Source: a virus. From it: 64,000 bases of DNA. Below the pieces are notes generated by a model. That model saw nothing but the letters and a program-made list of their open reading frames with translations, had not been told where the DNA came from and ran no database searches. How positions within the stretch are numbered: position 1 is the stretch's first letter; every line of letters starts with the position of its first letter. The DNA lies in the IMG/VR virus record IMGVR_UViG_3300021962_000047, positions 32,001 to 96,000 of that record. The stretch is one strand, 5' to 3'. The translations under genes were made by a program, and so were the position numbers. Positions 16,345 to 62,511 of the stretch are shown piece after piece.

Positions 16345-17895
16345 ATGAAATTCAACAAGCATAAAAAGCGAATAGAAGAATTGGAATTACAATTAAGTGG
16401 ACAAACAAAAACAGATAAATTACCACTACCAATTCAAGAACAAAAAACCGAAACTATGAAGAAAGTAAAAATCGAAAGATTACCTTACTCTTACTCCGCC
16501 TTGTCAAGATTTATTGACCCCGAAACAATGAACGTACACTACAACAAACATTACAAAGGGTATGTAGAAAAGTTAAACAGGGAGTTAGAAAAATTAAAAG
16601 AACAGGATTTAGAATTAGAACAAATCATAAAAGGTATCTCAAGATACAACACAACCGTTAAGAATAATGCGGGGGGAGCTTACAACCACCAATTATTTTG
16701 GAAGATGTTGTCACCAAAACAACAAAGACCATCAGGACCCGTTTACGATAAGATTGTAAAAAAATATGGGGACTATGAAAAGTTCAAACAAGAATTTTCA
16801 AGAAAGGCAAAAAACAAATTTGGAGCAGGATGGGTATGGTTGGTTCTTACAAAAAATAATGACTTAAAAATTATTACCACCGACAATCAGGATAACCCGT
16901 TAATGAATACCATTAATTTTGGGGGATATCCTTTGTTAGGATTGGACCTTTGGGAACACGCTTACTACCTCAAATATAAAAACAGAAGAGACGATTATAT
17001 CAAAAACTTCTTTAGTGTTATCAACTGGAGTTACGTGAACTACCTATTTGATAACAAAACCAAAAAGAAAATTAACGAATCTCGTGATGTGAAAAGTATC
17101 ATTGAGGAGGGAGCATCGAGAGGTTGTAGTCCCGCTCAGGTAAACACTTATAGAGAAATCTTTAACAAAAATTCTGAAATCAAAAAAATCTTCATGTTTG
17201 CAATTATGGATATTTTAAAAGAAGTTTTCGCTGATTTTTGGTATGATAAAGGAAAATATGCTGAAGGTGAGATGTCAGGTGTTTATGACTATGAAAAGAA
17301 AGGTCGTTCTGTGATTAACAAATTAAACACAAACTACACGGCATTTTGTACTTTGGTTAATGATATAAACGAGGTATTAAAGAAAATGGGTGTTGACCCA
17401 ATTAATATGATTAACCAATCTCCTGAACAACAAGTTAGAGAAGTAAGAAGGTTAGTCAGATATATGACGGAATTCCGTTATAGAATTTTCAATCCAGAAT
17501 CGGCAACATTTAAAAAGATTATGTCAGGATTGGATACTTCAAATCGTTTTGGTGATGAAAGAGAAATCAAAGCGGTTGTAAATATGAAAAACATATTTGG
17601 AACAAAAGAAGTATTCAAAGTGGGTGACCTTGGGAATGTTGAGGATATGTTAGGTGGGGTTGATGCTACCATTACTAAAGATGGTGAAACCAAAACAGCA
17701 CAAATCAAACCGTTTTCAACATATGAAGAAGGTGAAGATGGTAAAATTACCGTCTTTAACACAGGAAACGTAAAACCATATAAAACTGATTATTTGGTGT
17801 TCCACAACGACAGAAAAGGTACTATTGTGTTTAAAAACGATAATACTGAAATTGTTGGTGGTAATTATGTTTTCCCAAAAGAAGATATGTTGTAA
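16345..17895 (+). CDS. sod: Mn/Fe superoxide dismutase fused to a C-terminal PD-(D/E)xK-like domain
   Basis: SOD motifs LPYSYSAL, HYNKHY, NNAGGAYNHQLFW, FGAGWVWL, NQDNP and DLWEHAYYL. About 280 extra C-terminal residues contain GDERE...DMLGGVDATI...AQIKP. Confidence 0.85.
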   Translation: MKFNKHKKRIEELELQLSGQTKTDKLPLPIQEQKTETMKKVKIERLPYSYSALSRFIDPETMNVHYNKHYKGYVEKLNRELEKLKEQDLELEQIIKGISRYNTTVKNNAGGAYNHQLFWKMLSPKQQRPSGPVYDKIVKKYGDYEKFKQEFSRKAKNKFGAGWVWLVLTKNNDLKIITTDNQDNPLMNTINFGGYPLLGLDLWEHAYYLKYKNRRDDYIKNFFSVINWSYVNYLFDNKTKKKINESRDVKSIIEEGASRGCSPAQVNTYREIFNKNSEIKKIFMFAIMDILKEVFADFWYDKGKYAEGEMSGVYDYEKKGRSVINKLNTNYTAFCTLVNDINEVLKKMGVDPINMINQSPEQQVREVRRLVRYMTEFRYRIFNPESATFKKIMSGLDTSNRFGDEREIKAVVNMKNIFGTKEVFKVGDLGNVEDMLGGVDATITKDGETKTAQIKPFSTYEEGEDGKITVFNTGNVKPYKTDYLVFHNDRKGTIVFKNDNTEIVGGNYVFPKEDML

Positions 17896-22654: not shown

Positions 22655-25600
22655 TTAAGAACAGTTAGAGTAGAACGTAATATTGTTAGGTGAACAACTT
22701 GTCAAAGTATATTGACTATAGTTAGTTGCTGGAGGGTCTCCAGGGTTAGATGGTGATTGTGCATAAATGTAGTTACCTTGGACATCTGCTGCGATTTCAC
22801 TATAGAAAATCGTTAATGAACACGGTGCAGGTGGGTCAACCGCACCGATTTCAACACGAACCACATCACCAACACATGCGGATATTGTAGTTGTAGTATT
22901 CGAACCACAAGGAACACCAGTTCCAAACGAATAAACCTGAACTCCATTAACTTTAATAACTCCAAGAGTTTTAATACAACAAGTAGAACCAACAATACAG
23001 CCTTGTTTAATATGTTGAACATTTATTGTACAACATTGAGTTGTTTGAGTTGGTGTAACAGTTCTGGTTGGTGTTGGAGTCCTTGTTGGAGTTCTCGTAA
23101 CTGTTTGAGTTGCAGTTTTAGTTGGCGTAGGAGTTGCAGTTCTCGTAGGTGTTGCAGTTCTCGTAGGTGTTGGAGTCGGTGTTGGTGTTGTAATAACACT
23201 CGTACATGGGTAAGATTCGGTACATGTAGCACAATCATCATAAGTAATACCACCAAATCCACCTGTAAATACAGACCAAGTTATTGGTACATCAAGTATT
23301 TTATTTAATGTGTAACAATTATTTGAAATTCCTCCTTGTTCTGAAACATACACAATTAGACCATTATTATTACTCACATACTCACAAATACTAGTATCTT
23401 GACTACCAAAGTAATATATTTCAAATTCACCTTCGGAACAACAATTGTCCGATAAACTAAAGTAACAATACTCAGGACTTGTTGGAGTCGGAGTTAATGT
23501 TGGTGTTTGAGTTGGTGTAGGTGTTGGTGTCGGACACGGAGCTACATCATTACAAGCTGAACAATCGACATATAATGTAGTCACTTTATACTCTGCGGGT
23601 TCTGGCGTTCCCACTAAGTCATAAATTGTGTAACAAATTCCGTCAATTATAACAACATACCCTTGTAATTCACTTCCATATGCCGTTGGAACATCAACAA
23701 ATTTCACAATTTCAGTTCTTCCATCACAACATTCAATCATTGTTAATTCCCATGTAGTGTATGCAACCGTTTCGGTTGGGGTATTAGTAGGTGTATTTGT
23801 TGCGGTTAATGTAGGTGTAGCTGTTGCGGTCAACGTAGGTGTTGATGTCAACGTAGGTGTGTTTGTCGATGTTAATGTTGGAGTTGAAGTCCTTGTTGGT
23901 GTATTTGTAGCTGTTAATGTTGGAGTATTTGTCGCGGTCAACGTAGGTGTTGCCGTTGCGGTTAGTGTTGGAGTCGAAGTCCTTGTTGGAGTATTTGTGG
24001 CAGTTAACGTAGGAGTTGAAGTCCTTGTTGGTGTATTTGTTGCAGTCAACGTAGGAGTTGAAGTCCTTGTTGGGGTATTTGTTGCGGTTAATGTTGGAGT
24101 ATTTGTCGCGGTTAAAGTTGGAGTATTTGTTGCGGTTAAAGTAGGAGTTGAAGTTCTTGTCGGAGTATTTGTTGCGGTTAAAGTAGGTGTTGAAGTTCTT
24201 GTCGGAGTATTTGTCGCGGTTAAAGTAGGTGTTGATGTTAATGTTGGAGTATTTGTTGCAGTCAACGTAGGTGTTGATGTTAATGTTTGGGTTGGTGTAG
24301 GAGTAACTGTTCTTGTTGCCGTTAACGTAGGAGTGTTTGTCGCTGTTAGTGTAGGTGTTGATGTTAATGTTTGAGTCGGTGTAGGAGTAACTGTTCTCGT
24401 TGCAGTTAATGTAGGTGTACTGGTTGATGTAAGTGTTTGTGTTGATGTAACTGTTTGAGTTTGTGTTGGAGTAACCGTTCTCGTTGCGGTTAATGTTGGA
24501 GTACTAGTTGAAGTCAACGTAGGTGTTGAAGTCAATGTAGGTGTGCTGGTAGATGTTTGTGTTGGAGTACTTGTTAAAGTCGGTGTGTTAGTTGCAGTTA
24601 ATGTTGGAGTAGATGTTAGTGTCTGAGTATTAGTAGGTGTAACCGTTCTGGTTGATGTTAATGTCGGTGTGTTAGTTGGTGTTTGAGTTGGCTGTGCAGT
24701 CAATGTAGGTGTCGCAGTTGAAGTCAATGTAGGTGTTGAAGTCAACGTAGGTGTACTTGTTGAAGTTAAAGTTGGAGTATTAGTTGCGGTTAATGTGGGA
24801 GTATTTGTTGATGTTAAAGTAGGTGTAGATGTTAATGTTTGAGTTAAAGTTGGCGTTTGTGTTGGAGTAGATGTAACTGTTTGTGTCGGTGTCGGAGTTG
24901 GACATGTAAATGTAGTACCCGCAACTGCATCACCATCTACATCAGTTACAATATTGATTTGTGTTGGGTCACTTATTCTTTGAATATATAGGCTTGGACC
25001 TCCGTATAATGAAATTAATTCACTATAAATGTAAGGTGTTAGATTACCATCTGAATATAATGTTTCACCTTCAATTACAGGGTGGTCATTATCATAAATT
25101 ACAATAGTTGATGGTGTACCATAACATAAATCATTTAAACTATTTGATATATAATAGTTTTCAGCATTTTGAATTTGAGTTGGTGTTGGTGTAGATGTTT
25201 GAGTGCTCGTAGGGGTTGGAGTATTTGTAGAACTCAATGTCGGAGTAGAAGTTAATGATTGAGTCGGTGTTGGTGTAACTGTTCTTGTTGAGGTTAATGT
25301 AGGAGTATTAGTTGCGGTTAAAGTAGGTGTACTAGTTAAAGTAGGTGTTGAGGTCGAAGTTAAAGTAGGTGTGTTAGTTGATGTTAATGTTGGCGTATTA
25401 GTTGAAGTTAATGTTGGCGTTTGACTCTGAGTTTGTGTATTAGTTGGAGTAACAGTTCTTGTTGATGTCAAAGTAGGTGTTGACGTACTTGTCAATGTTG
25501 GAGTACTGGTCGTTGTTGGCGTTGAAGTGCTCGTCTGAGTTGGAGTATTAGTAAGTGTTTGAGTTGGAGTTGCAGTTAATGTTTTAGTGGCTGTTACTGT

Positions 25601-26440
25601 TTGAGTATTTGTTGGTGTTAAAGTTAAAGTACTTGTTAAAGTAGGTGTTGAAGTACTTGTTAGTGTTGGCGTTTGAGTTAAAGTAGGAGTTGAAGTACTT
25701 GTTAATGTTGGAGTACTTGTTAATGTAGGTGTTGAAGTACTTGTTAGAGTTGGCGTTTGAGTTAAAGTAGGTGTTGACGTACTTGTCAATGTCGGAGTAC
25801 TTGTTAGAGTTGGTGTTGACGTACTTGTCAATGTTGGAGTACTCGTTAAGGTTTGAGTATTCGTTGGGGTTAAAGTGGGTGTTTGAGTTAAAGTAGGTGT
25901 TGAAGTACTTGTTAAAGTAGGAGTTGAAGTTAATGTAGGTGTAGATGTACTAGTTAAAGTTGGTGTGCTTGTTAATGTCGGTGTTGAAGTGCTTGTTAAT
26001 GTTGGTGTAGATGTACTTGTTTGAGTCGGAGTATTAGTCGGAGTATTAGTAGATGTTAATGTCGGTGTCGAAGTGCTTGTTAAAGTTGGTGTTGCGGTAC
26101 TCGTTTGTGTTGGAGTGTTTGACAAAGTCGGAGTACTCGTCAATGTAGGAGTTGACGTACTAGTTTGAGTAGGAGTATTTGTGAGTGTTTGAGTTAATGT
26201 TGGGGTGCTAGTTAATGTTGCAGTTAAAGTTGGTGTTGGTGGAATAATATGAATATATGTTTTATCATAATAAGGAACATAAATTTCATAAGTACCTGTA
26301 AAATGAGGCGCAATATAATTAAAAGGCATTGTAAGCGTACCTAAATCAGATGGGTCACCACCTTCATCAGACAAATACGTAACCTGAACTGTAAAACCAC
26401 TTAGGTTTTCACTTAAAAATCTAATACCTTCTCCCGCCAT
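22655..26440 (-). CDS. Thr/Pro-rich mucin-like putative virion protein with Cys-rich modules
   Basis: 1261 aa, mostly [14 protein letters not shown] and TATNTPT(L/R) repeats. Preceded by the TATTTAT motif. No signal peptide is apparent. Confidence 0.75.
23760..26240 (-). repeat. Degenerate 18/24-bp coding tandem repeats (Thr/Pro)
   Basis: Units such as gttaatgttggagtactt and gttaaagtaggtgttgaagtactt with heavy synonymous variation, interrupted by a globular module at about 24900-25175. Confidence 0.85.
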
Positions 26441-53301: not shown

Positions 53302-53850
53302 TCTTCTACACTCTTTAACTACCCACTTATAACCTATTTCACCACCCCTTAATAATGACATTACATAGTCATTGTCTTCGTGTGGTCTACCCTTAAACCC
53401 TTCTTTTAAAAGAGGGGTATTTTTTTGTGAATCAAAATACTTTTTGATTGTTTGTATATCTTCTACTGTGATATTCTTGCCTTCTAATAGTTTTTCCGCA
53501 AACATATCTTTTTTACCTTGTTTTCTTAAGTAAAAAATACCTCTTTTTACGTTTTCTTTTACAACCTTAGGTACACGTACAGTTCTAGTATCTTCTTTTA
53601 CCTCAATTATAAGGTCACCAGTACCTTTAATTACTCTATGGTAGGTCTCCTTAGGTATAAAGTATTTTTGTCCTTCTAATAAAGGTTTTGGTAGTTCATT
53701 TTCAATCTGTAACATCCATCCATTAGACGATTCAATAAAAACCTCTCGGTCTCGTCTATCACGATGCCAAACCAACTCTTCAGAATCTACATTTTCTGAA
53801 AATGTTCTTCTGAATTTTCCCGTACTAATATCTTCTTGTTTGTATACCAT
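53293..53850 (-). CDS. Cupin-like domain fused to a domain resembling 33312..33782
   Basis: ELVWHRDRRDREV...GW..Q.ENELP...FIPKETYHRVIKG (cupin-like). The start at 53850 overlaps the upstream TAA. Confidence 0.6.
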   Translation of the reverse strand: MVYKQEDISTGKFRRTFSENVDSEELVWHRDRRDREVFIESSNGWMLQIENELPKPLLEGQKYFIPKETYHRVIKGTGDLIIEVKEDTRTVRVPKVVKENVKRGIFYLRKQGKKDMFAEKLLEGKNITVEDIQTIKKYFDSQKNTPLLKEGFKGRPHEDNDYVMSLLRGGEIGYKWVVKECRRLL

Positions 53851-56800
53851 TACCAATATCTTCCTGGAACGTTATTACCAAAATCTTTGTGTGCTCTACA
53901 AGCCCAATATCCTGCTTTGGTTCTATCTTTTTTCTTTTCACACTGATGTCTTGCCGCAAACGATGCTCTAGCCCCTGAGTCATTCCATTTAGCTGTCATA
54001 ACAGGTGAACCGTAAGAAACTTTAACAATCTTTCCTGTTTTAGGATTTCTAACATATACATACCATTTTTTAGAACCACCCTTTTTAGGTTTTCCTAATT
54101 CTACATTCTTACCTTTATACTCCGCCTCCGATAAACCAAATATTTTTTTAGCCATAGGATTTAAGTCTGATGGTTTAATAAGTTTAGCAGGTATGGTTTT
54201 TGATTTAGACCTTAATGCTTTTTGAGCTCTGTGGTTACCATCAAGTATCCATTGTATTTTATTTTGCTCATCCACCATTACTAAAATGGGGTATTGAGTT
54301 GAAATTTCTACTTGAGATATTCGTTCAATTTCTTCAGGATTATCATCCCAATTTAAAACTATTGGAGCTAATTTTTCTGTAGGTAAGTTTACAATTTTAA
54401 TATTTTTAGTTAATTCTAAAATATCTTGTAATGTAATAGTTTCATTATCAGCACCTGTCCAAGATGTATCTTCCCCTTGCTCATTAACCATTGGGAAATC
54501 TAATGGTAACCTTTCACCCTCATAGATAAAGAATTTACCTAAATCTGTATTTAATAAATCTTCATCCTCTTCATTAATATAAAAACCTTTTTGTTTTAAC
54601 TCTCGAGCTTCATTAATAATCTCAAAATATTTATCACTACCATGTCTGAATACATTTTCTGAAACGGGTATTTTATTATCAATATGATATTGTAACTCTT
54701 CAGAAATTTGAGGTTTTGTTTTTATTTTATTTAATTCATTTTGAATCGATTCTTTAATTCCGAATCCTTTTCCTTTGTGTTGAGATGGATTATCCATATA
54801 TTCGTAATAGTTGTTAAAAATTTTCATTATTTTATGGTAATCACTATCTATTCTAAATTTTTCAAATTCGTTAGATAACCATTGTTCACCATTAAGGTGT
54901 TCGTTATTTAATTCATCGTAAACCAATAATCTACCAGGACCTTCACCCCACCCACGGTATAATCCGTATTTTGTATTATTTAGTTTATCGGCAATTTCTT
55001 TGTTTTTAATTATCAAATAAATTAATGTACCTCCGATAATATGTTCATCAAACATCTCATCATTATCCTTGTTAGTTGTACACCACTTTGTATTTGCACC
55101 ATATTTACAAGAAGCATTATGTGTTAACGGTACTACCAATAGATAATCTTCGGTGTCGTATAATTTTTCATATTCTTTAGGTTCTACCTTAAATTTTTCC
55201 GTAACTAAAGTATCCGATTCTTCACCATCAATTTGTGGTTCAATATCTTTTGGTTGTAATGGTGGATTTAATAAGAATCTTTGGTTGACCCAATTTCTTA
55301 ATTCATTTTCTACAAAATATTCTGGTACCACTTCATCATCTGGTTTTGATGATGCAACTTCAGATATATAATAAGCAAACTTTAATTTAGCTTCTTCATT
55401 CATTAAATTCATCAAACCATCACTAACAAAGAAGATTTTACTAAATGGGTCCGTTGGATTTATATCACCTTCGGCAACGGTAAACAATCTAAGTATTGTT
55501 TTAGCCCACCAAGACTTATAAGATTTTGTTTCTTTCAATGTTGGAGATAATATCTTATTGGCGGCTCTCATTGCTGAACCAATAAACCCAGCAACTGCAA
55601 CTTGAGGTAAGAACCACGGTAATAAACGAATAATTGCCTTTACACCTCCCTCACCAACGTGTAAGGCTAAACGTTTACTCATTGCAGCATCTACAATGCT
55701 CTTTAATTGACCAAATGTGATTGGTCCTTGAGATGAGCAAAACTTTTGTGAATCACAAATACTTTTAACAACTTGTTTAGATGGATTTACAGTTTGAATT
55801 TCTTCTTCCTGTTCATTTAAATTTTCACTCTTAAGTGCTGTTGAAGTTTCAATACCAACAATTCCATCAATCATATTAAGTTTTCTATCTTTTTGGAATT
55901 TTTTAATTTGAGATGCGGTATTAAAATCGTACACACCATTAATATCATCAGCACTTAAGTTATCAAAGTAATTCAAATCTTTTAATATTTTTTGAATCAT
56001 TTCAACACCCTTACCTTCAGACCCAATAGATAATAGTTCAGAATTGTCCCCATTTTCTATAATATCATCTATGGTTAAATCATTTTTAACAATTTCACCA
56101 TCAATTTTATCAACAACATCACTAGGTTCAATAATAGTCATTTCACCATTTAAACTATCTTTTAAATTATCCCACGGATTTATATTACCATTTGTATAAC
56201 CTTTATCCGCATAATACATAGAAAAATGCAAGTGAGGGTGTGTATTAGAGGCATTTCCTGTATTACCAACGGTACCTATAAAATCTCCTTTATAAATTTT
56301 ATCACCTTTTTTTAATTGGTCTGAAATCTGATTTAAGTGGGCGTAATAATAAACTATACCGTCTTTTAAAATACTAACGGTATTACCACCTATTCCTAAA
56401 TTTCTACCAATTTTATATATAGTACCATCAACACACGCAACTAGTGGTGTTCCTTTTGGTGCAAAAATATCGATACCGCTATGACCTCCGTGAGCTTGGT
56501 GTCGAGCATCACCACCACCATAATCACTATTATGTACTGCCCTATCTTTATCTAATATTTTTTTAGATGAACCTAATCCTTCAGTATCATAACCAATATT
56601 AAATTGATTGTTACCTATCGGAAATAGAAATGAAGAACTCTCCTTAATTAATAAAGATGATTCATTATTTTCTTGTTCCGATAATCTTTTTATTACCAAG
56701 TTGGTTAATCTTTCCAAAGATTCGTTTTTCTTATCTTTTGGTTTATATGAAGTCATAATTGGCGTTTGTCCTTTTCCTGTTTGTGTATCCTTTTTTTCCG

Positions 56801-57044
56801 CAGAACGTTTTTGTCTGCAAGCCGCCTTTTTTTCCGCATCCGTCATTTTACCCGCAACACCAGCTGCTCTACATTTTGGGTACGCACCCTTATCTGCAGT
56901 TTTTCTACCACAGGGAGGGTGTTTTCCATCCTTATCTTTACTACATATGTTAACCCACGGCCCTTTAGGTTGCTTACTACCCTTTGGTTTTTTCTTCTTA
57001 CCAAACCAAACAGCTAAATCTTCACTTAAAATATATTCAGACAT
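53850..57044 (-). CDS. Mosaic multidomain protein: Cys/Lys-rich domain, M23 peptidase, peptidoglycan-binding domain, two or three unknown domains, ParB-like domain and basic C-terminal domain
   Basis: M23: HSGIDIF...YYAHL...HPHLHF. PG-binding: GSEGKGVEMIQKIL...DGIVGIET. Also SCKYGANTKWCTT, ParB-like PILV...ILDGNHR, and AEYKGKNVELGKP...ARHQC...AGYWAC. The start was moved to the ATG at 57044. Confidence 0.75.
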   Translation of the reverse strand: MSEYILSEDLAVWFGKKKKPKGSKQPKGPWVNICSKDKDGKHPPCGRKTADKGAYPKCRAAGVAGKMTDAEKKAACRQKRSAEKKDTQTGKGQTPIMTSYKPKDKKNESLERLTNLVIKRLSEQENNESSLLIKESSSFLFPIGNNQFNIGYDTEGLGSSKKILDKDRAVHNSDYGGGDARHQAHGGHSGIDIFAPKGTPLVACVDGTIYKIGRNLGIGGNTVSILKDGIVYYYAHLNQISDQLKKGDKIYKGDFIGTVGNTGNASNTHPHLHFSMYYADKGYTNGNINPWDNLKDSLNGEMTIIEPSDVVDKIDGEIVKNDLTIDDIIENGDNSELLSIGSEGKGVEMIQKILKDLNYFDNLSADDINGVYDFNTASQIKKFQKDRKLNMIDGIVGIETSTALKSENLNEQEEEIQTVNPSKQVVKSICDSQKFCSSQGPITFGQLKSIVDAAMSKRLALHVGEGGVKAIIRLLPWFLPQVAVAGFIGSAMRAANKILSPTLKETKSYKSWWAKTILRLFTVAEGDINPTDPFSKIFFVSDGLMNLMNEEAKLKFAYYISEVASSKPDDEVVPEYFVENELRNWVNQRFLLNPPLQPKDIEPQIDGEESDTLVTEKFKVEPKEYEKLYDTEDYLLVVPLTHNASCKYGANTKWCTTNKDNDEMFDEHIIGGTLIYLIIKNKEIADKLNNTKYGLYRGWGEGPGRLLVYDELNNEHLNGEQWLSNEFEKFRIDSDYHKIMKIFNNYYEYMDNPSQHKGKGFGIKESIQNELNKIKTKPQISEELQYHIDNKIPVSENVFRHGSDKYFEIINEARELKQKGFYINEEDEDLLNTDLGKFFIYEGERLPLDFPMVNEQGEDTSWTGADNETITLQDILELTKNIKIVNLPTEKLAPIVLNWDDNPEEIERISQVEISTQYPILVMVDEQNKIQWILDGNHRAQKALRSKSKTIPAKLIKPSDLNPMAKKIFGLSEAEYKGKNVELGKPKKGGSKKWYVYVRNPKTGKIVKVSYGSPVMTAKWNDSGARASFAARHQCEKKKDRTKAGYWACRAHKDFGNNVPGRYW

Positions 57045-57093
57045 ACTTGAATTTTTTATATCTTTTCTTATATATATTATAAATATCAAATAA

Positions 57094-57433: not shown

Positions 57434-58264
57434 ATGAAAAACACAAAAACCTACAATGAATTAGTTCAAAAAATGAGACACTTCTTTTTAAATAAAGGAT
57501 TTAAAGAAGTACCTACACAAAGTCGATTATCAATCTTAGCTGCATGTGAAAACCCACATTCAATTACAACATTTACCTATAACGGTGAAATTTGGCCTCT
57601 ACCACAAACAGGTCAAATGTGGTTGGAATATGAATTACTTAAAAACCCTGAGTGGGAAGGAGTATTCTGTATCTCCACATCGTACCGTCAAGAAAAAAGT
57701 CCAATTCCAGGTAGACACGAACTTATCTTCCCTATGTTCGAATTTGAATCAAAAGGTGAAATGAAAGATATGTTAAAACTAGAATCTGAATTATTAGAAT
57801 GGTTAGGTTTTGATTCTCCAGTAGAAGTTAATTACAACGATGTATGTGAAGAATACGGCGGAGTTGAAATCTTAGAAGATGAACACGAAACAAGAATGTG
57901 GAAAGAAAAAGGTTCGGTAGTATCTCTTCAGAATTTTCCATTAAGGACTAACCCATTTTGGAACATGAGACATAAAGAGAATAATATCTTTAACAAAGTT
58001 GATGTTATCCTTTATGGTCAAGAAACAATCGGAAGTGCTGAAAGAAGTTGTAATGTTGAAGAAATGAAACATAATTTCTACACTATCGAAAATGGTGGTT
58101 ATTCCGCCAAGTTGTTCGAATTGTTCGGTAAAGAACGTGTAGAAAAAGAATTAGAAGAATTTTTATCTTTTGATTTCTTCCCTCGATTTGGTGGAGGTAT
58201 AGGTATGACTCGATTAGCTAGAGCATACGAACTAATGTTAGAAGAAGAATTAGCAGTAGTATAA
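57434..58264 (+). CDS. Class IIb aminoacyl-tRNA synthetase catalytic domain only (AsnRS/AspRS-like; no anticodon-binding domain)
   Basis: Motif 1 MRHFFLNKGFKEVPT, LPQTGQMWLE, motif 2 STSYRQE...RH..IFPMFEFE, ETIGSAER and motif 3 RFGGGIGMTRL; only 276 aa. Confidence 0.8.
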   Translation: MKNTKTYNELVQKMRHFFLNKGFKEVPTQSRLSILAACENPHSITTFTYNGEIWPLPQTGQMWLEYELLKNPEWEGVFCISTSYRQEKSPIPGRHELIFPMFEFESKGEMKDMLKLESELLEWLGFDSPVEVNYNDVCEEYGGVEILEDEHETRMWKEKGSVVSLQNFPLRTNPFWNMRHKENNIFNKVDVILYGQETIGSAERSCNVEEMKHNFYTIENGGYSAKLFELFGKERVEKELEEFLSFDFFPRFGGGIGMTRLARAYELMLEEELAVV

Positions 58265-58316: not shown

Positions 58317-60146
58317 TTATCTTAATTCTCTCAAGTCGAATGTTCTAACACCATCAACTGTGATTCTACCATAGAAACGGTTGTTAACCATTTTCTTAGC
58401 GTATCTTGTCATGATACCCTTGATAGGTGTGAAGTTGAATGGGTTGTACATAGTTGGAGTCAACTGAAGAGGTACATATGGTGCGTAAACGTAACCTGTG
58501 TCTAACAAAGATGAACCTTTGTGACCCAACAATACTTGGTTTGCTGGGAAGTAAGGGTCACGATATACTTGATATCTACCTGCTAATGTACCAACTCTCT
58601 CGATACCCATGTTGTACTGGTCCTGCTCAGGAGATGCATTTGAAACGTGGAAGTACTCCAAGTCATCAAAGATAGCAGAAACTTCTGAAGAAACAACAAT
58701 CCAGTTAGCTCCACCTCTCAACGTAGATTTGTGAATCTGTGCTGATAATTGGTTGATAGCTGTGATTAATGTTTGGTTCCAGTCTTTCTGAGTGTATTGA
58801 GTTAATGGATTAGCTGCAGTTCCTCTCTTCCATCCGTTGTAGTCCCAACGTAAGTTCCAAGCCGCACCTTTTCTCAAGTCTCTTAAGATTTCACGGTCGA
58901 TTTCAGCAGCCACTTGCTCAGACAATAAAGCTGTTAATTCAGCTTCAGCGTCGATGTTGTGGAATGCAGAAACGTCTTGTGCCAATTCAGGAGACCATTG
59001 TGCTCTTAATTTTCTTTCTGTTACAGAAACAGTAACTGACTCAAGGTCGAAAGAAACTTCACCGATTTCATCTTCGAATTCCAAGTTCTTGTAAACTCTA
59101 TATGTTGCAGTGAATTGAGTGTTAGCAACAGTTGTACCGTCAACAGCTGTAGTTAAACCTGAGTATCCGTCGATAGAATTTGGACCGATAGTACATGGTA
59201 CTTGTAAGTCAACTTCTAAGTAGATAACACCGTCAGCGTCACAAAGTTGTTGGAATGAACCACTGTTACCTCTATCAGCACCTGAGTAGAAATCAGTTTG
59301 TGTTTGGTTACCGTATTGTACAATACCCTTACCATACTTCTGTGTTACAACTCTAAATAACAAGTTACCTGAACCTGCTCCTGAGAATGCTCCTGAAGCG
59401 TTTGCGTTGATTGTCAAGTCAGACAAGAATGATTCGTTATCCATTTCGTTACCGTCAGGACCGATGATTTTACCAGCTCCTGCAGGTGCGAAACCTTCCA
59501 TAGCAAGAATTACCTTTCTCCAAGGACCATCAGCCGCTAAGTAAGCAGTTGGTACTAATTCATTGTTTGAATTCCAGTTTACAGTAACTACCTGAGTAAT
59601 TGGTGCAGTAACTGCTGACCACTGACCTTTAGAGTAGTCAAATAACCCTGGAGGGTCTAATGCTGCTTCGTTACCTTCGTAGAACAAGTCATACAAGTTC
59701 TTTTGGTATGCGTTAGCATTTGGTGGATAACCTGCTCCTTGTGCAGCTGGACCGTTTGGTGCTCCCAATGGTGCGTAGTGCGTGTTAGGATTTGGTGCAG
59801 TGTTATCGTAACCCTGAATTCTAGGTACGAAGTAGAATAATTTACCGATAGGTAAGTTCATAGCTTGTACAGACACGATGTCGTTAGCTAATAATTTAGA
59901 GAATACTCTTCTCACGATAGGGAAAACTACAGTTTCAAATGAACCTGAACTGTCTGAAGACGATGCTTCATTGATTAAGTGAGATGCTTGGTTTTCATAT
60001 AACTGTGCAATGTTCTCTCTTAAGTGACCTTTCAAACCCTCTAAGAATCCTAATTTGTCCCATTTGTTGATTGTGTCTTCTTTGATAACTTTCAAGTGCT
60101 TCATGCCGATGTTACCAACTAGACCGCTTTCTAATAATGCTCCCAT
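58317..60146 (-). CDS. Major capsid protein (T4 gp23-like)
   Basis: PIVRRVF...DIVSVQAM, RKLRAQWSPELAQDVSAFHNIDAEAELT...EIDREI, YAPYVPL and PIKGIMTRYA. Confidence 0.97.
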   Translation of the reverse strand: MGALLESGLVGNIGMKHLKVIKEDTINKWDKLGFLEGLKGHLRENIAQLYENQASHLINEASSSDSSGSFETVVFPIVRRVFSKLLANDIVSVQAMNLPIGKLFYFVPRIQGYDNTAPNPNTHYAPLGAPNGPAAQGAGYPPNANAYQKNLYDLFYEGNEAALDPPGLFDYSKGQWSAVTAPITQVVTVNWNSNNELVPTAYLAADGPWRKVILAMEGFAPAGAGKIIGPDGNEMDNESFLSDLTINANASGAFSGAGSGNLLFRVVTQKYGKGIVQYGNQTQTDFYSGADRGNSGSFQQLCDADGVIYLEVDLQVPCTIGPNSIDGYSGLTTAVDGTTVANTQFTATYRVYKNLEFEDEIGEVSFDLESVTVSVTERKLRAQWSPELAQDVSAFHNIDAEAELTALLSEQVAAEIDREILRDLRKGAAWNLRWDYNGWKRGTAANPLTQYTQKDWNQTLITAINQLSAQIHKSTLRGGANWIVVSSEVSAIFDDLEYFHVSNASPEQDQYNMGIERVGTLAGRYQVYRDPYFPANQVLLGHKGSSLLDTGYVYAPYVPLQLTPTMYNPFNFTPIKGIMTRYAKKMVNNRFYGRITVDGVRTFDLRELR

Positions 60147-60170: not shown

Positions 60171-61430
60171 TTATTTTAATTTATTCATCAAATCCTTCAT
60201 TCTTAAGAATTGTGGATTCTCATAAGTTTTTGACTCGATAAGATTTGTAGAAGCTCCTCTCGATGGAGTTTTAGCAACTTTAGATTCAACACTTTCGTTG
60301 ATTGAAGTTGACTCCTTAGATTCGAATTCTTCTTTCAAGTTCTTATACAAAGTCTTTGATTCCTTCAATGTTTCAACAGAATCGAAACGTCTTAGGATGT
60401 TTATTTTTTCTTGTTTAGTAGTAGTGTGCTCTGTAAACAAACGAGTTGCGTAAGCCAAGTTTGAATTAAATACAGCAACTTCATTTAACTTCTCTCTAAA
60501 GATGTTTAATGCTTTTCTGTACTCTTCATTTTTAGCTCTTAAAGATTCAACTTCAGATTTCAATTCACTTTCATTAGTTTTAACTTTCATTTTAGGTAAT
60601 GACTTTTTCTTTGAGTCATTTCTTGAACCGTTTCCTAATGTGTGAGCCGCTTCTTCCATTTCACCTTCATTTTCATAATCCTTGTAATGTCCGTCTACAT
60701 CACCAGTCTTATGACCTTTTTCACGCTTAAATTCGTGCTTTTTAGAACCCCACTCTTCTTCAACTTCTTCTTTCCACTCTTCGTCGATTTCCATTTCAGT
60801 TTCGTCTTCTACTTCTTCCATGTCGTCGTCCTCTTCTTCAGAGATTTCGATTTCGTAAACTACTTCATCCTCTTCAGCTTCGTCTTCGCTTTCAGTATGG
60901 ATTTCGTATTCTACGCCAGCCTCATCATCCTTAAGTGAAATGCCATCTTCGTCTTTTGTTACGATGATACCATCTTCTTCACCCATAGCCTTGAATACTT
61001 TCAAGATTTCTTCGTCTGATGCACCTGTTAAATCAAGTGGTAATAGAACTTCTTCTTCGTCGTCAACTTCAAGTTCATCACCAGGTAAGTCCATCATTAA
61101 CATTTCTTCACCTTCGTCTTCACTATCCATGTCCAACATTTCTTCATCATCTTCCGACTCTTCGTCTTCAGAATCTACATCAATGTCAAGTTCCATTTCT
61201 TCTTGTTCAGCCATTTCTGACTCTTTTTCCATTTCTGAACTTTCTTCCATTGACACCATTTCGTCTTCAACCTCATCTTCTTGTTCAGATAGAGATTCTT
61301 TTACCAATTCGCTGATTTCTTCCTTCATTGTAGAAGCAAGTATTCCTTTTGCGTTTTGAGTAACGGCTTCCTCCAAATTTTTCATTTGTAGTAACGCCTC
61401 TTCAACTAGAGATTTTTTTGTGTCTGCCAT
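60171..61430 (-). CDS. Prohead core scaffold protein (gp22-like)
   Basis: Very acidic middle region and coiled coil, located between the protease and capsid genes; LNEVAVFNSNLAYATRLF. Confidence 0.8.
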   Translation of the reverse strand: MADTKKSLVEEALLQMKNLEEAVTQNAKGILASTMKEEISELVKESLSEQEDEVEDEMVSMEESSEMEKESEMAEQEEMELDIDVDSEDEESEDDEEMLDMDSEDEGEEMLMMDLPGDELEVDDEEEVLLPLDLTGASDEEILKVFKAMGEEDGIIVTKDEDGISLKDDEAGVEYEIHTESEDEAEEDEVVYEIEISEEEDDDMEEVEDETEMEIDEEWKEEVEEEWGSKKHEFKREKGHKTGDVDGHYKDYENEGEMEEAAHTLGNGSRNDSKKKSLPKMKVKTNESELKSEVESLRAKNEEYRKALNIFREKLNEVAVFNSNLAYATRLFTEHTTTKQEKINILRRFDSVETLKESKTLYKNLKEEFESKESTSINESVESKVAKTPSRGASTNLIESKTYENPQFLRMKDLMNKLK

Positions 61431-61565: not shown

Positions 61566-61775
61566 TTATTCGTAAACCTCATCAATCTTACTTTCAGCAC
61601 ATGCTGTAATTCTCCAATCGTGTGGGAACCCTGTAAATTTAGAAGTTACTTTAGCTTCAACGTCAGTAACGTTAAAACCTTTAACTAATTTTTCTTCTCT
61701 GATTTTTTTAATTTTACCTGAGTTCTCATCTGGCAAATCATACTGAATTTTTGCAACGAAATATTTTTCTTCCAT
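61566..61775 (-). CDS. DUF4494-like small protein
   Basis: YFVAKIQY...GKIKKIREEKLV...VTDVEAKV resembles the N-terminus of Bacteroidota DUF4494 (recalled pattern). Confidence 0.55.
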   Translation of the reverse strand: MEEKYFVAKIQYDLPDENSGKIKKIREEKLVKGFNVTDVEAKVTSKFTGFPHDWRITACAESKIDEVYE

Positions 61776-61788
61776 GGTTATAATTTTT

Positions 61789-62511
61789 TTAATAACCTAA
61801 ATAATCGGAAAGTCTTTTCATTAAGTCAAGTGATTTGTTGTTAGAACCTCCACTAATAGGGTTAGAAAGTTTCATATTTCTTTCTTCTTCTAAATTTTCG
61901 TCATACTGACTTCTATCATCTTTGTTTAAAAACAAGTACGCTCCTGGTGTTGATGGTGATGATACTAAGTCAAAACAAATCAATTCAAAATCATCTTGTA
62001 CTTCATTTTGTTCACCCTTTTTAGCTAATGAACCAACACCACGAGAAGATACACCCATAGTAACACCTTGTCTCATTAAATTAGCTGCAATATCACCAGG
62101 TGAAGATACAATACCTCTTTCGTGGAATCCAGGTGTTGTTAATAGTTTAATCTTACCCATTAAAACATTACCTTCCCACCATACATCAGTAATTAAGTGC
62201 GATACTCTTTCTAAATCTATTAAAGAAGATTCAGGGTGATTTAATTCTGAAATTGATAAACCTTTTTCGATTGCCTTCTTATAATTTTCAGCTTCTCTTT
62301 TTAATATTCTTTCAGGGTATACTCTACCATTTCTATTTGGTACACCATATTTTTGTAAAACGGCATAAAATACAAATGGTTTAGAATGTTCTAATTGACC
62401 ATATGATTCTCTTATTACTTGAGCGTTTCTTTCTTCAGTTGGTGATACGAAACCCGCATCCCACTCAACTAATATTCCTTTTCCTGTATCGCTAGGACCT
62501 AATACTTTCAT
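61789..62511 (-). CDS. Prohead protease (T4 gp21-like)
   Basis: NRNGRVYP, ELNHP, VSHLIT, GVSSRGVGS and DLVSSPSTPGA. Confidence 0.95.
   Translation of the reverse strand: MKVLGPSDTGKGILVEWDAGFVSPTEERNAQVIRESYGQLEHSKPFVFYAVLQKYGVPNRNGRVYPERILKREAENYKKAIEKGLSISELNHPESSLIDLERVSHLITDVWWEGNVLMGKIKLLTTPGFHERGIVSSPGDIAANLMRQGVTMGVSSRGVGSLAKKGEQNEVQDDFELICFDLVSSPSTPGAYLFLNKDDRSQYDENLEEERNMKLSNPISGGSNNKSLDLMKRLSDYLGY

What the first reader, a model, noticed from the sequence alone, without database searches (positions are those of the whole stretch)
53850..57044. Polyprotein-like mosaic whose modules are joined at prohead-protease-type [ILV]-x-E sites
Seen: unrelated domains (Cys/Lys-rich, M23 peptidase, PG-binding, unknown, WCTT domain, unknown, ParB-like, basic AEYKG domain) with a hydrophobic-x-Glu motif at most boundaries: ILSE|D, RLSE|Q, LIKE|S, LNE|Q, LVTE|K, IKE|S, VNE|Q, LSE|A. 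The capsid protein has LINE|A at E60/A61. Known: T4 gp21 cleaves after (I/L)-x-E, cuts gp23 at E65/A66 and processes internal head proteins. Inference: this is a capsid-packaged polyprotein that the gp21-like protease (61789-62511) cuts into separate effectors. New cargo domains, such as the ParB-like unit between VNE| and LSE|, could be added as cassettes.
Basis: partly seen in the sequence, partly recalled or inferred. Interest (0 to 1): 0.8.

Follow-up and report, generated by a model that had tools for sequence, protein, structure and literature searches.

The report
Phage head cargo polyprotein with cleavable joints
A large marine T4-like phage encodes, next to its capsid gene, a string of unrelated protein modules joined at short motifs that match the cutting site of its own head protease, and relatives add, drop and swap modules at these joints.

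Summary

The motif is barely over-represented overall (22 seen, 15.8 expected). Its placement is far from random.
- Relatives vary from 290 to 1064 aa by gain, loss and swap of cassettes, and the cassette edges carry the motif.
- Of 47 distinct non-query upstream contexts of six modules, 23 have [ILVM]-x-E exactly at the boundary (background 2.4%).
- For the ParB-like module, 82 of 127 database representatives do (background 2.3%). Decoy motifs are not enriched.
- An 8-residue leader ending L-S-E precedes the first module in 202 of 202 sequences that carry it.
- The gene follows protease, scaffold and capsid genes in 79 of 80 related loci.
- The protease is 34% identical to T4 gp21, which cuts after L/I-x-E.

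Best reading (about 0.6): a capsid-targeted polyprotein cut by the prohead protease into separate cargo proteins.

Cleavage and packaging are inferred, not shown.

The closest known kinds are T4 internal proteins with capsid-targeting leaders, and "polyvalent proteins". I rate this a new variant of a known kind.

The parts
57021..57044 (-). Leader, residues 1-8 (MSEYILSE), ending in L-S-E; candidate capsid-targeting propeptide
   Evidence: [ILVM]xE lies immediately before the DLAVWF-type start in 202 of 202 sequences with 26 leader variants (these are homologous, not independent). E8 is invariant or nearly so. T4 IPII and IPIII start with a 10-aa leader ending I-A-E (PMC9026906 passages).
56676..57020 (-). 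Module A, residues 9-123: basic, Cys-containing domain plus a tail ending RLSE
   Evidence: Net charge +19, 4 Cys. phrog_23735 matches 29-87. Present in all 113 unique family members by construction of the set.
56640..56675 (-). 12-residue spacer, residues 124-135, between two motif sites (RLSE| and LIKE|)
55812..56639 (-). Cassette B, residues 136-411: M23 peptidase (187-280) plus PG_binding_1 (344-404), ending LNE
   Evidence: Pfam and PDB M23 matches. Found in only 2 of 113 unique family members (P0002, P0003). The same cassette, 47-70% identical, sits at the C-terminal side of a different protein family (P0079-P0102), preceded by LIKE|, LIRE| or VLNE|.
55197..55811 (-). Cassette C, residues 412-616: unknown function, with a hydrophobic stretch at 470-488; ends LVTE
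   Evidence: Kyte-Doolittle maximum 1.67. Present or absent among relatives. Also found in unrelated proteins P0084, P0087 and P0103.
54750..55196 (-). Cassette D, residues 617-765: the 'WCTT' domain; starts KFKV, ends IKE
   Evidence: Follows A directly in some relatives and C in others, always after [ILV]xE: 3 of 3 distinct contexts.
54480..54749 (-). Core module E, residues 766-855; ends PMVNE
   Evidence: Present in every listed architecture from 290 aa up. Also present in cultured Flavobacterium phage immuto and Methylophilales phage Melnitz proteins.
54126..54479 (-). Cassette F, residues 856-973: ParB/Srx-like; ends GLSE
   Evidence: Absent, present or replaced by other modules in relatives.
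53853..54125 (-). Core module G, residues 974-1064: basic C-terminal domain starting AEYKGK
   Evidence: Net charge +16. phrog_7595. 3304 proteins under 585 aa carry it. [ILVM]xE lies directly upstream in 12 of 12 distinct contexts.
58317..60146 (-). Major capsid protein (Gp23 family), with a candidate 60-residue propeptide ending LINE|A
   Evidence: Pfam Gp23 E 3.5e-74. LINE|A is kept in 20 of 20 unique N-termini. Five motif sites lie in residues 1-60 against four in the other 549. T4 gp23 reads LTE65|A66 (65-residue propeptide stated in PMC5694885 passages).
60171..61430 (-). Acidic 419-aa protein in the scaffold (gp22) position
   Evidence: Position between protease and capsid genes as in T4. 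Highly acidic sequence. 21 motif sites against 21.4 expected, so not enriched. No family match.
61789..62511 (-). Prohead serine protease, gp21 family
   Evidence: Pfam Peptidase_S77 E 4.7e-24. phrog_207 E 1.7e-44. 34% identity to T4 gp21, E 4e-24.

Best explanation
The gene encodes a capsid-targeted cargo polyprotein.

Proposed mechanism (inferred). The short N-terminal leader, and perhaps the conserved core modules, take the precursor into the scaffolding core of the prohead. The phage's gp21-type serine protease then cuts after the Glu of [ILVM]-x-E at the end of the leader and at the joints between modules.

This would release several separate proteins:
- two strongly basic small proteins (A and G) that probably bind the packaged DNA;
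- the core module E;
- in this phage, four accessory cassettes: an M23 plus PG-binding murein peptidase, a module with a hydrophobic stretch, the 'WCTT' module and a ParB/Srx-like module.

These would be packaged with the DNA and delivered to the host at infection. Because each cassette is set free by cleavage, cassettes can be inserted, deleted or exchanged at the joints without disturbing their neighbours.

Shown here: the mosaic, the motif at the joints, cassette turnover at these joints, the head-module position and the gp21-family protease.

Inferred: capsid targeting, cleavage, packaging, ejection and the functions of the modules.
For: 1. Cassette turnover. There are 113 unique complete family members of 290-1064 aa. 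The minimal form is A+E+G. About ten optional cassettes occur in different combinations, each ending in [ILVM]xE and following one.

2. Boundary statistics.
- In 94 distinct junction contexts the motif's Glu is exactly at the projected boundary in 44 (background 0.023) and within 2 residues in 70 (background 0.112). Decoys [ILVM]x[D/K/Q/S], [AGST]xE, [FWY]xE and [NQPHC]xE show no enrichment in either test.
- Using upstream flanks only, with at most 4 of 12 residues identical: 27 of 51 exact. Without the 4 query contexts this is 23 of 47 exact and 32 of 47 within 0 to -2 (background 0.024 and 0.072).

3. ParB-like module across the 1.84-billion-protein library. There are 228 hits at E up to 1e-3, and I analysed the best 150. 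Of these, 127 have a start that can be projected.
- [ILVM]xE lies exactly before the module in 82 of 127 (background 0.023).
- P1 is Glu in 93 of 127 and P3 is L/V/I/M in 92 of 127, while P2 varies.
- In 49 proteins the module lies within the first 45 residues of a protein starting with Met. In 27 of these the motif lies exactly before it, like a short leader.

4. Leader. [ILVM]xE lies before the first module in 202 of 202 sequences. It is kept even in members that lack the Cys-rich part of A. E+G-only members have other short leaders ending in the motif.

5. Genomic position. The order is protease - scaffold - capsid gene - (one or two opposite-strand genes) - this gene. A capsid-gene match accompanies the family gene in 79 of 80 related loci.

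6. Protease. It is an S77-family member, 34% identical to T4 gp21. gp21 cuts after L/I-x-E and removes 7-65-residue propeptides and 10-19-residue targeting leaders (PMC9026906 passages).

7. Capsid protein. It has a conserved LINE|A at residue 60, comparable with T4 LTE65|A66.

8. Charge. A and G are strongly basic (+19 and +16).

9. Precedent. An M23 domain occurs in a capsid-internal ejection protein of cyanopodophage A4 (PDB 9k2v chain E; paper seen as a search listing only).
Against: - No direct evidence exists that the protein is in virions or is cut.
- The motif is common: 22 sites in this protein, many of them inside modules. Presence alone proves little, and it is unknown which sites would be accessible.
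- Overall frequency is near expectation (P 0.05-0.08).
- The scaffold-position protein is not enriched in the motif (21 against 21.4 expected).
- For downstream boundaries, and for the ParB-like module, the motif travels with the module. It could be a conserved structural part of the domain rather than a cleavage site.
- A strict indel test (motif at both ends of each insert) was met by only 60 of 270 unique inserts, in 13 of 44 insert clusters. Failures cluster in the N-terminal half, where similar linkers shift the gap placement by a few residues, and in inserts made of several cassettes.
- A crude test on BLAST segment ends gave only about 2.3-fold enrichment: 447 of 1714 within 2 residues against 0.116.
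- Some junctions lack the motif, for example the context upstream of C in P0087 and the NESESE variant in L028.
- In SPN3US, apart from the protease's own self-cleavage, all identified prohead-protease cuts produce N-terminal propeptides, not mature multi-protein products (PMC10052503 passages). Release of many mature proteins from one precursor therefore has no experimental precedent that I found.
Confidence: 0.62

Rival explanations
1. It is an intact polyvalent protein. The multi-domain protein is packaged, or acts in the cell, as one chain. At most the N-terminal leader is removed. The [ILVM]-x-E at the joints would then be a conserved end-cap of the modules or a favoured linker sequence, not a cleavage site.
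For: Polyvalent proteins of 2-15 domains, including ParB-like and cell-wall-degrading domains, are known from phages, and some are delivered uncut (PMC5512222 passages). The motif travels with the modules: GVAE before GGAETSW, and IKE at module ends. Many motif sites also lie inside modules.
Against: Unrelated modules (B, C, D, E, F, G and others) all share the same three-residue pattern at their edges. P3 is hydrophobic, P1 is Glu and P2 is free. Related patterns such as [ILVM]xD or [AGST]xE are not enriched. Spacers of 12-15 residues bounded by two sites occur. Some stand-alone ParB-like proteins start within 3-10 residues of the domain and lack the motif, so the domain does not seem to need it. 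The pattern equals the known specificity of the protease family encoded 5 kb away.
Confidence: 0.22
2. The motifs are recombination joints or repeated capsid-targeting signals. The short motif and its neighbours would serve as micro-homology for illegitimate recombination, or as repeated docking signals for the scaffold, without being cut.
For: One relative (P0051) carries a duplicated SE-x-YKGKD stretch at a cassette junction, as expected from recombination in a short shared sequence. T4 leaders are targeting signals as well as cleavage sites.
Against: The residues at P3 and P2 differ between contexts of the same module: LQE, IDE, LNE, LDE, MKE, IKE, LKE, VDE, VNE. DNA micro-homology therefore cannot explain the conservation; selection acts on the peptide pattern. 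In T4 the targeting leader is itself removed at this motif.
Confidence: 0.08
3. It is not a head protein. It would be a late non-structural, lysis or tail-associated protein that merely neighbours the head genes, and the motif pattern would be unrelated to the prohead protease.
For: M23 and PG-binding domains are typical of endolysins and tape-measure proteins in the phage collection. Two small opposite-strand genes separate it from the capsid gene.
Against: Only 2 of 113 unique family members carry the M23 cassette, so cell-wall lysis does not define the family. Synteny with protease, scaffold and capsid genes holds in 79 of 80 loci. There is a leader with the protease motif. The core modules are highly basic.
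Confidence: 0.06

Closest known systems
T4 internal proteins IPI-IPIII and Alt (capsid-targeting leader, cut by gp21)
   Same: Short N-terminal leader ending in a hydrophobic-x-Glu site (T4 IPII and IPIII leader seen). gp21-family protease in the same genome. Basic small proteins expected in the head. Cargo varies strongly between related phages behind a conserved leader (PMC9026906 passages).
   Different: T4 encodes each internal protein as its own gene with its own leader. Known cuts remove N- or C-terminal propeptides. Here up to seven modules are strung in one ORF with a site at each joint. The leader is 8 rather than 10-19 residues. I found no sequence homology to T4 internal proteins.
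Polyvalent proteins of phages and conjugative elements (Iyer et al. 2017, PMC5512222; abstract and passages read)
   Same: Many unrelated effector domains in one polypeptide. Encoded beside virion genes. ParB-like and peptidoglycan-degrading domains are typical members. The authors themselves draw the analogy with viral polyproteins.
   Different: That work proposes release of the domains by an embedded zincin-like metallopeptidase. No such domain was found here. In the passages I read, the prohead protease appears only in the reference list. Here the joints match the specificity of the separate prohead protease.
Processed inner-body and ejection proteins of giant phages phiKZ, 201phi2-1 and SPN3US
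   Same: A gp21-related protease cuts many head proteins after Glu within a short motif. Several sites per substrate. Large phages with much internal protein (passages in PMC9026906, PMC5694885 and PMC10052503).
   Different: Different motif (Ala or Ser at P3 in the sites quoted in those passages). In SPN3US, apart from the protease's own self-cleavage, the identified cuts remove N-terminal propeptides. Cassette exchange at the sites has not been described there.
Polyproteins of RNA viruses
   Same: One ORF, several mature proteins, and a viral protease site at each junction.
   Different: Here it would be an accessory cargo set of a double-stranded DNA phage, cut inside the prohead by the maturation protease. 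The modules are optional and are exchanged between relatives.
Capsid-internal ejection protein with an M23 domain of cyanopodophage A4 (PDB 9k2v chain E)
   Same: An M23 peptidase domain inside a roughly 1000-residue protein packaged in the capsid (paper PMC12002296 seen as a search listing only).
   Different: That is a podovirus pre-ejectosome protein. I have no evidence for protease-delimited cassettes there.

Membership tests
T4-type internal head proteins with a capsid-targeting leader | N-terminal leader of about 10-19 residues ending in L/I-x-E | tested here: met
   The leader MSEYILSE is 8 residues, slightly shorter than the range. The motif lies before the first module in 202 of 202 sequences. 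T4 comparison. Definition from PMC9026906 passages.
T4-type internal head proteins with a capsid-targeting leader | The phage encodes a gp21-family prohead protease | tested here: met
   Pfam Peptidase_S77 E 4.7e-24. 34% identity to T4 gp21.
T4-type internal head proteins with a capsid-targeting leader | [quoted passage not shown] | not testable with these tools
   Needs virion proteomics. Only the head-module synteny (79 of 80 loci) speaks for it.
T4-type internal head proteins with a capsid-targeting leader | Sequence homology to IPI, IPII, IPIII or Alt | not tested
   No direct comparison was run. Pfam and PHROG scans named no such family.
Polyvalent proteins (Iyer et al. 2017) | Two to fifteen functionally disparate domains in one polypeptide of a phage or conjugative element | tested here: met
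   At least seven modules, each with separate homologues elsewhere.
Polyvalent proteins (Iyer et al. 2017) | Encoded in the context of virion or late genes and likely packaged | tested here: met
   Synteny with protease, scaffold and capsid genes. Packaging itself was not tested.
Polyvalent proteins (Iyer et al. 2017) | Embedded zincin-like metallopeptidase (or another peptidase) proposed to release the domains | tested here: not met
   Pfam, PHROG and NCBIfam scans find only the M23 murein peptidase. Remote homologues cannot be excluded without structure models.
Viral polyprotein | Recognition motif of a virus-encoded protease at the junctions between independent modules | tested here: met
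   (counts in the report).
Viral polyprotein | The precursor is cleaved into separate mature proteins | not testable with these tools
   Needs mass spectrometry or a cleavage assay.
M23 endolysin or virion-associated murein hydrolase | M23 domain with H-x3-D and H-x-H zinc ligands | tested here: met
   Pfam hit at 187-280. HSGID and HLH can be read in the translation. These ligand motifs are recalled knowledge.
M23 endolysin or virion-associated murein hydrolase | The hydrolase domain is the conserved core of the family | tested here: not met
   Only 2 of 113 unique family members carry it.

The most novel reading that the evidence does not exclude
A widespread clade of roughly 300-kb marine T4-like phages may use the prohead-protease site as a universal joint. 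Effector modules of many kinds would be strung into polyproteins, targeted to the capsid by one leader, cut apart during head maturation and injected. Besides those in this protein, candidate modules are nucleotidyltransferase-like, PPK2, GIY-YIG and DUF192 domains, which sit next to the same ParB-like cassette in other proteins, and possibly the superoxide dismutase in this window. The result would be an exon-shuffling-like, plug-and-play cargo system for a double-stranded DNA virus.
Probability: 0.35. Interest if true: 0.85.

Novelty: new variant of a known kind. Interest (0 to 1): 0.74.

Why it matters
If the joints are cut, this would be a natural polyprotein strategy in a tailed phage. 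One targeting leader and one maturation protease would load a changeable set of effectors into the capsid.

It would explain how injected cargo diversifies quickly, because cassettes can be exchanged at protease sites.

It would extend the T4 capsid-targeting idea from single proteins to strings of proteins. It would also give a simple sequence rule for predicting injected proteins in uncultured marine phages: 3304 proteins under 585 aa carry the core module G.

The idea can be tested directly. Two cultured phages, Flavobacterium phage immuto and Methylophilales phage Melnitz, carry proteins with modules E and G.

Tried and rejected
- Near-identical DNA in the phage collection: none. tblastn found 294 records, but none covers 80% of the protein; each hit is to a single module.
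- Crude test on BLAST segment ends: noisy, with 1714 contexts and only about 2.3-fold enrichment. I replaced it with projected module boundaries.
- Strict pairwise-indel test: met by 60 of 270 unique inserts. Gap placement is shifted by a few residues where linkers resemble each other, so I treat this test as too strict rather than as contrary evidence. The misses are reported.
- Scan of the 106-kb record for leaders of the form M-x(2-10)-[ILV]-x-E: gave no clear signal.
- Other copies of the modules in the held part of the genome: none. The record is only about 34% complete.
- Endolysin reading: rejected, because the M23 cassette is in 2 of 113 members.
- Intein or homing-element reading of the ParB-like cassette: considered and dropped. 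The module has the D-G-x-H-R motif of the ParB/Srx fold, and I saw no intein-like features in the sequence.
- Literature searches for a described prohead-protease-delimited polyprotein found none in the held library. Subscription papers and supplementary files were not visible and could hold relevant virion proteomes.

Full report
WHAT IS THERE

The window is bases 32001-96000 of an IMG/VR virus record of 105,971 bp that CheckV rates 34% complete. Contigs carrying close relatives of the gene reach 295-316 kb. The phage therefore probably has a genome near 300 kb. G+C is about 33%.

The finding is one ORF on the minus strand, 53850-57089. Its likely start is the ATG at 57044, which gives 1064 residues.

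Domain content:
- Pfam recognises only Peptidase_M23 (187-280, E 2.5e-23) and PG_binding_1 (344-404, E 7.3e-11).
- PHROG families of unknown function cover 29-87, 630-682, 861-962 and 973-1050.
- No near-identical DNA exists in the phage collection.
- By tblastn, 294 phage records match, but none covers 80% of the protein. Different parts hit different phages.

The mosaic nature is confirmed.

So are LINE|A at residue 60 of the capsid protein and an S77 protease at 61789-62511.

THE MOTIF: FREQUENCY AGAINST PLACEMENT

The protein holds 22 [ILV]-x-E sites against 15.8 expected from composition (Poisson P 0.08, shuffle P 0.049). Frequency alone is unremarkable, and many sites lie inside modules. 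The question is whether sites coincide with module boundaries that are defined independently.

RELATIVES SHOW CASSETTE TURNOVER AT THE SITES

A word-indexed search returned 173 proteins at E up to 1e-3 among 8000 scored candidates, with 120 listed. A scan of IMG/VR found 415 stretches that encode a relative, of which 80 loci were kept.

From these I extracted 133 complete proteins that start with module A and end with module G. Of these, 113 are unique, at 290-1064 aa.

The shortest members are A+E+G. Longer members carry optional cassettes:
- a roughly 40-residue Cys-rich mini-module;
- M23 plus PG-binding (only the query and P0003, 2 of 113);
- module C, module D, and a further module after D;
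- a 15-residue spacer;
- the ParB-like module, and at least two alternative modules at its position. One protein (P0051) carries two of these in tandem.

In the listed architectures each cassette follows an [ILVM]-x-E and ends with one. Examples are ...PMVNE|QGADTSW...GLSE|AEYKGK with the ParB-like cassette, and ...PMINE|AEYQGK without it.

One exception I saw: a variant in L028 has lost the motif after the spacer.

Other A-module proteins lack E and G and carry different tails, again after motif sites.

STATISTICS

Method. I projected the query's module boundaries onto every homologous segment. I kept only contexts whose outer flank differs from those already kept.

All boundaries, 94 contexts:
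- The motif's Glu is exactly at the boundary in 44 (background 0.023).
- It is within 2 residues in 70 (background 0.112).
- The decoys [ILVM]x[D/K/Q/S], [AGST]xE, [FWY]xE and [NQPHC]xE are not enriched in either test.
- [ILVM]xN shows a weak excess within 2 residues (16 of 94 against 0.097, P 0.019) and none at the exact position.
- [KRDE]xE is enriched only within 2 residues (25 of 94 against 0.105), which reflects acidic linkers.

Limits of that test. The query boundaries were chosen at motif sites. At downstream boundaries the motif belongs to the homologous module end. That test is therefore partly circular.

Upstream flanks only. These are not homologous to the module. Flanks share at most 4 of 12 residues, and the alignment must reach within 5 residues of the module start.
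- All contexts: 27 of 51 exact and 36 of 51 at 0 to -2.
- Without the four contexts from the query itself: 23 of 47 and 32 of 47 (background 0.024 and 0.072).
- In most of the remainder the motif lies 1-4 residues downstream of the projected point.

Two cruder tests were weaker:
- BLAST segment ends: 447 of 1714 within 2 residues against 0.116.
- Strict indel test requiring the motif at both ends of each insert: met by 60 of 270 unique inserts, in 13 of 44 clusters. Failures are concentrated where similar linkers shift the gap placement, and in inserts made of several cassettes.

THE ParB-LIKE CASSETTE AS AN INDEPENDENT SAMPLE

Within the first search, this 118-residue module occurs at 71-91% identity in 20 different sequence contexts. 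Several are inside otherwise unrelated proteins.

Pfam assigns other domains to those host proteins:
- GIY-YIG (P0112);
- PPK2 (P0120);
- DUF192 (P0084);
- DUF6934 (P0114).

A full scan of 1.84 billion representatives gave 228 hits at E up to 1e-3. I analysed the best 150.

Upstream of the module:
- The start could be projected in 127 of the 150.
- [ILVM]-x-E lies exactly before the module in 82 of the 127 (background 0.023).
- It lies within -2 to +1 in 96 of the 127 (background 0.089).
- P1 is Glu in 93. P3 is L, V, I or M in 92. P2 is variable. P1' is Gly in 71 and Ser in 16.
- Decoys are not enriched, apart from 11 of 127 for [KRDENQ]xE.

Module close to the N-terminus:
- In 49 proteins that start with Met, the module lies within the first 45 residues. 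The leaders are 3-43 residues long.
- In 27 of these the motif lies exactly before the module.

Downstream of the module:
- Exact in 28 of 95, and within -1 to +3 in 41 of 95 (background 0.11).
- Double sites such as IKE|QGVAE| are frequent.

Caveat. The motif travels with the module (GVAE before GGAETSW), so it might be part of the domain. Against that, some stand-alone proteins begin within 3-10 residues of the domain and lack the motif.

The ParB label rests on three observations:
- PDB profile hits to SbnI, ParB and serine kinase (best E 0.0011).
- The invariant D-G-x-H-R motif.
- Weak Pfam ParB hits in 3 of 25 members for each of two ParB families.

LEADER

All 202 sequences that carry the DLAVWF-type start have [ILVM]-x-E directly before it, in 26 leader variants. 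These sequences are homologous, so they are not independent.

Divergent members that lack the Cys-rich part of A still begin x-Y-I-L-S-E. E+G-only proteins have other short leaders that end in the motif.

The cultured T4-like Methylophilales phage Melnitz has a 650-aa protein with four parts:
- a 9-residue leader ending I-I-E;
- a cytidylyltransferase-like domain;
- DUF5824;
- modules E and G.

T4 IPII and IPIII begin with a 10-residue leader ending I-A-E. The review PMC9026906 (passages read) describes that leader as the capsid-targeting sequence. It gives the gp21 specificity as L/I-X-E.

CONTEXT

Gene order in related loci. In the 80 related loci the order is a 145-aa ORF, protease, scaffold-position gene, capsid gene, one or two opposite-strand genes, this gene, then a 187-aa ORF. 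A capsid-gene match is present in 79 of 80 loci. The aaRS-like gene between the capsid gene and this gene is present in only 10 of 80.

Protease. It is 34% identical to T4 gp21.

Capsid protein.
- It matches T4 gp23.
- LINE|A is kept in 20 of 20 unique N-termini.
- It carries five motif sites in its first 60 residues against four in the remaining 549.

Scaffold-position protein. It is not enriched in the motif (21 against 21.4 expected).

Charge and hydrophobicity. Modules A and G are strongly basic (+19, +16). Module C has one hydrophobic stretch.

HOW IT MOST LIKELY WORKS

My best reading, at about 0.62, has three steps:
1. The leader takes the precursor into the prohead.
2. The gp21-type protease cuts at the leader and at the joints.
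3. The released modules stay in the head with the DNA and enter the host.

Likely roles of the released modules:
- A and G would be DNA-associated basic internal proteins.
- The M23 plus PG-binding cassette would open the cell wall locally.
- The ParB/Srx-like module would be a nucleotide-dependent enzyme or nuclease. That role was proposed for the DdrB-like ParB domains of polyvalent proteins in PMC5512222 (passages).

All of these steps are inferred.

The main rival, at about 0.22, is an uncut polyvalent protein whose modules happen to carry this end motif.

COMPARISON WITH WHAT IS KNOWN

The parts are known:
- capsid-targeting leaders and gp21 processing in T4;
- extensive Glu-specific processing in giant phages;
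- polyvalent proteins.

What I did not find in print is a phage cargo polyprotein whose junctions carry the prohead-protease site and whose cassettes are exchanged at these sites.

The polyvalent-protein paper proposes an embedded metallopeptidase for processing. No such domain is detected here.

I therefore file this as a new variant of a known kind, not as a member of the T4 internal-protein family. Packaging and cleavage, which define that family, could not be tested.

LIMITS

- Structure prediction, the look-up of encoding contigs and the protein atlas were unavailable.
- The linker test by structure could not be done.
- The genomic context of the distant ParB-like representatives could not be examined.
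- Supplementary files of papers were closed and may hold virion proteomes that bear on this.

Noticed in passing
window 16345-17895 (+): A 516-aa protein has Fe/Mn superoxide dismutase domains at 43-232. They are bracketed by motif sites PIQE|Q (upstream of the domain) and KINE|S (just after it), followed by about 270 residues of unknown function. It could be a second protease-delimited cargo protein.
   Followed up: partly
It is a possible stand-alone capsid-targeted protein.
   Followed up: partly
window 57434-58264 (+): A class II aaRS-like protein of 276 aa (Pfam tRNA-synt_2, E 8e-14) lies between the capsid gene and the polyprotein gene on the opposite strand. It is present in only 10 of 80 related loci, so it looks like an insertion.
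   Followed up: partly
proteins P0079-P0102 (database proteins, not in the window): A second mosaic family starts M-K-K-L-I-K-E. It carries an N-terminal region of about 420 residues, then the same M23 plus PG-binding cassette (47-70% identical to the query's). Some members add a Glyco_hydro_19 domain. The cell-wall cassette thus sits in different carrier proteins in different phages.
   Followed up: partly
window 24001-26000, inside ORF 22655-26440 (-): GC skew reaches 0.573 in one 2-kb bin, far above the rest of the window. This suggests a compositionally odd or repetitive coding stretch in a 1261-aa protein with no Pfam match.
   Followed up: no
window 61566-61775 (-): A 69-aa ORF between the protease and scaffold-position genes matches the C-terminal half of Pfam DUF4494 (E 2.9e-08). 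It has 4 motif sites against 1.8 expected.
   Followed up: no
loci L071, L072, L078, L080, L081 and L020, L039, L040: Relatives in which module A is joined to quite different C-terminal parts and modules E and G are missing. One group is 183-204 aa and ends in C-P-S. Another is a 551-aa form with module C and further unknown domains. In these loci no match to the 187-aa downstream ORF was found.
   Followed up: partly
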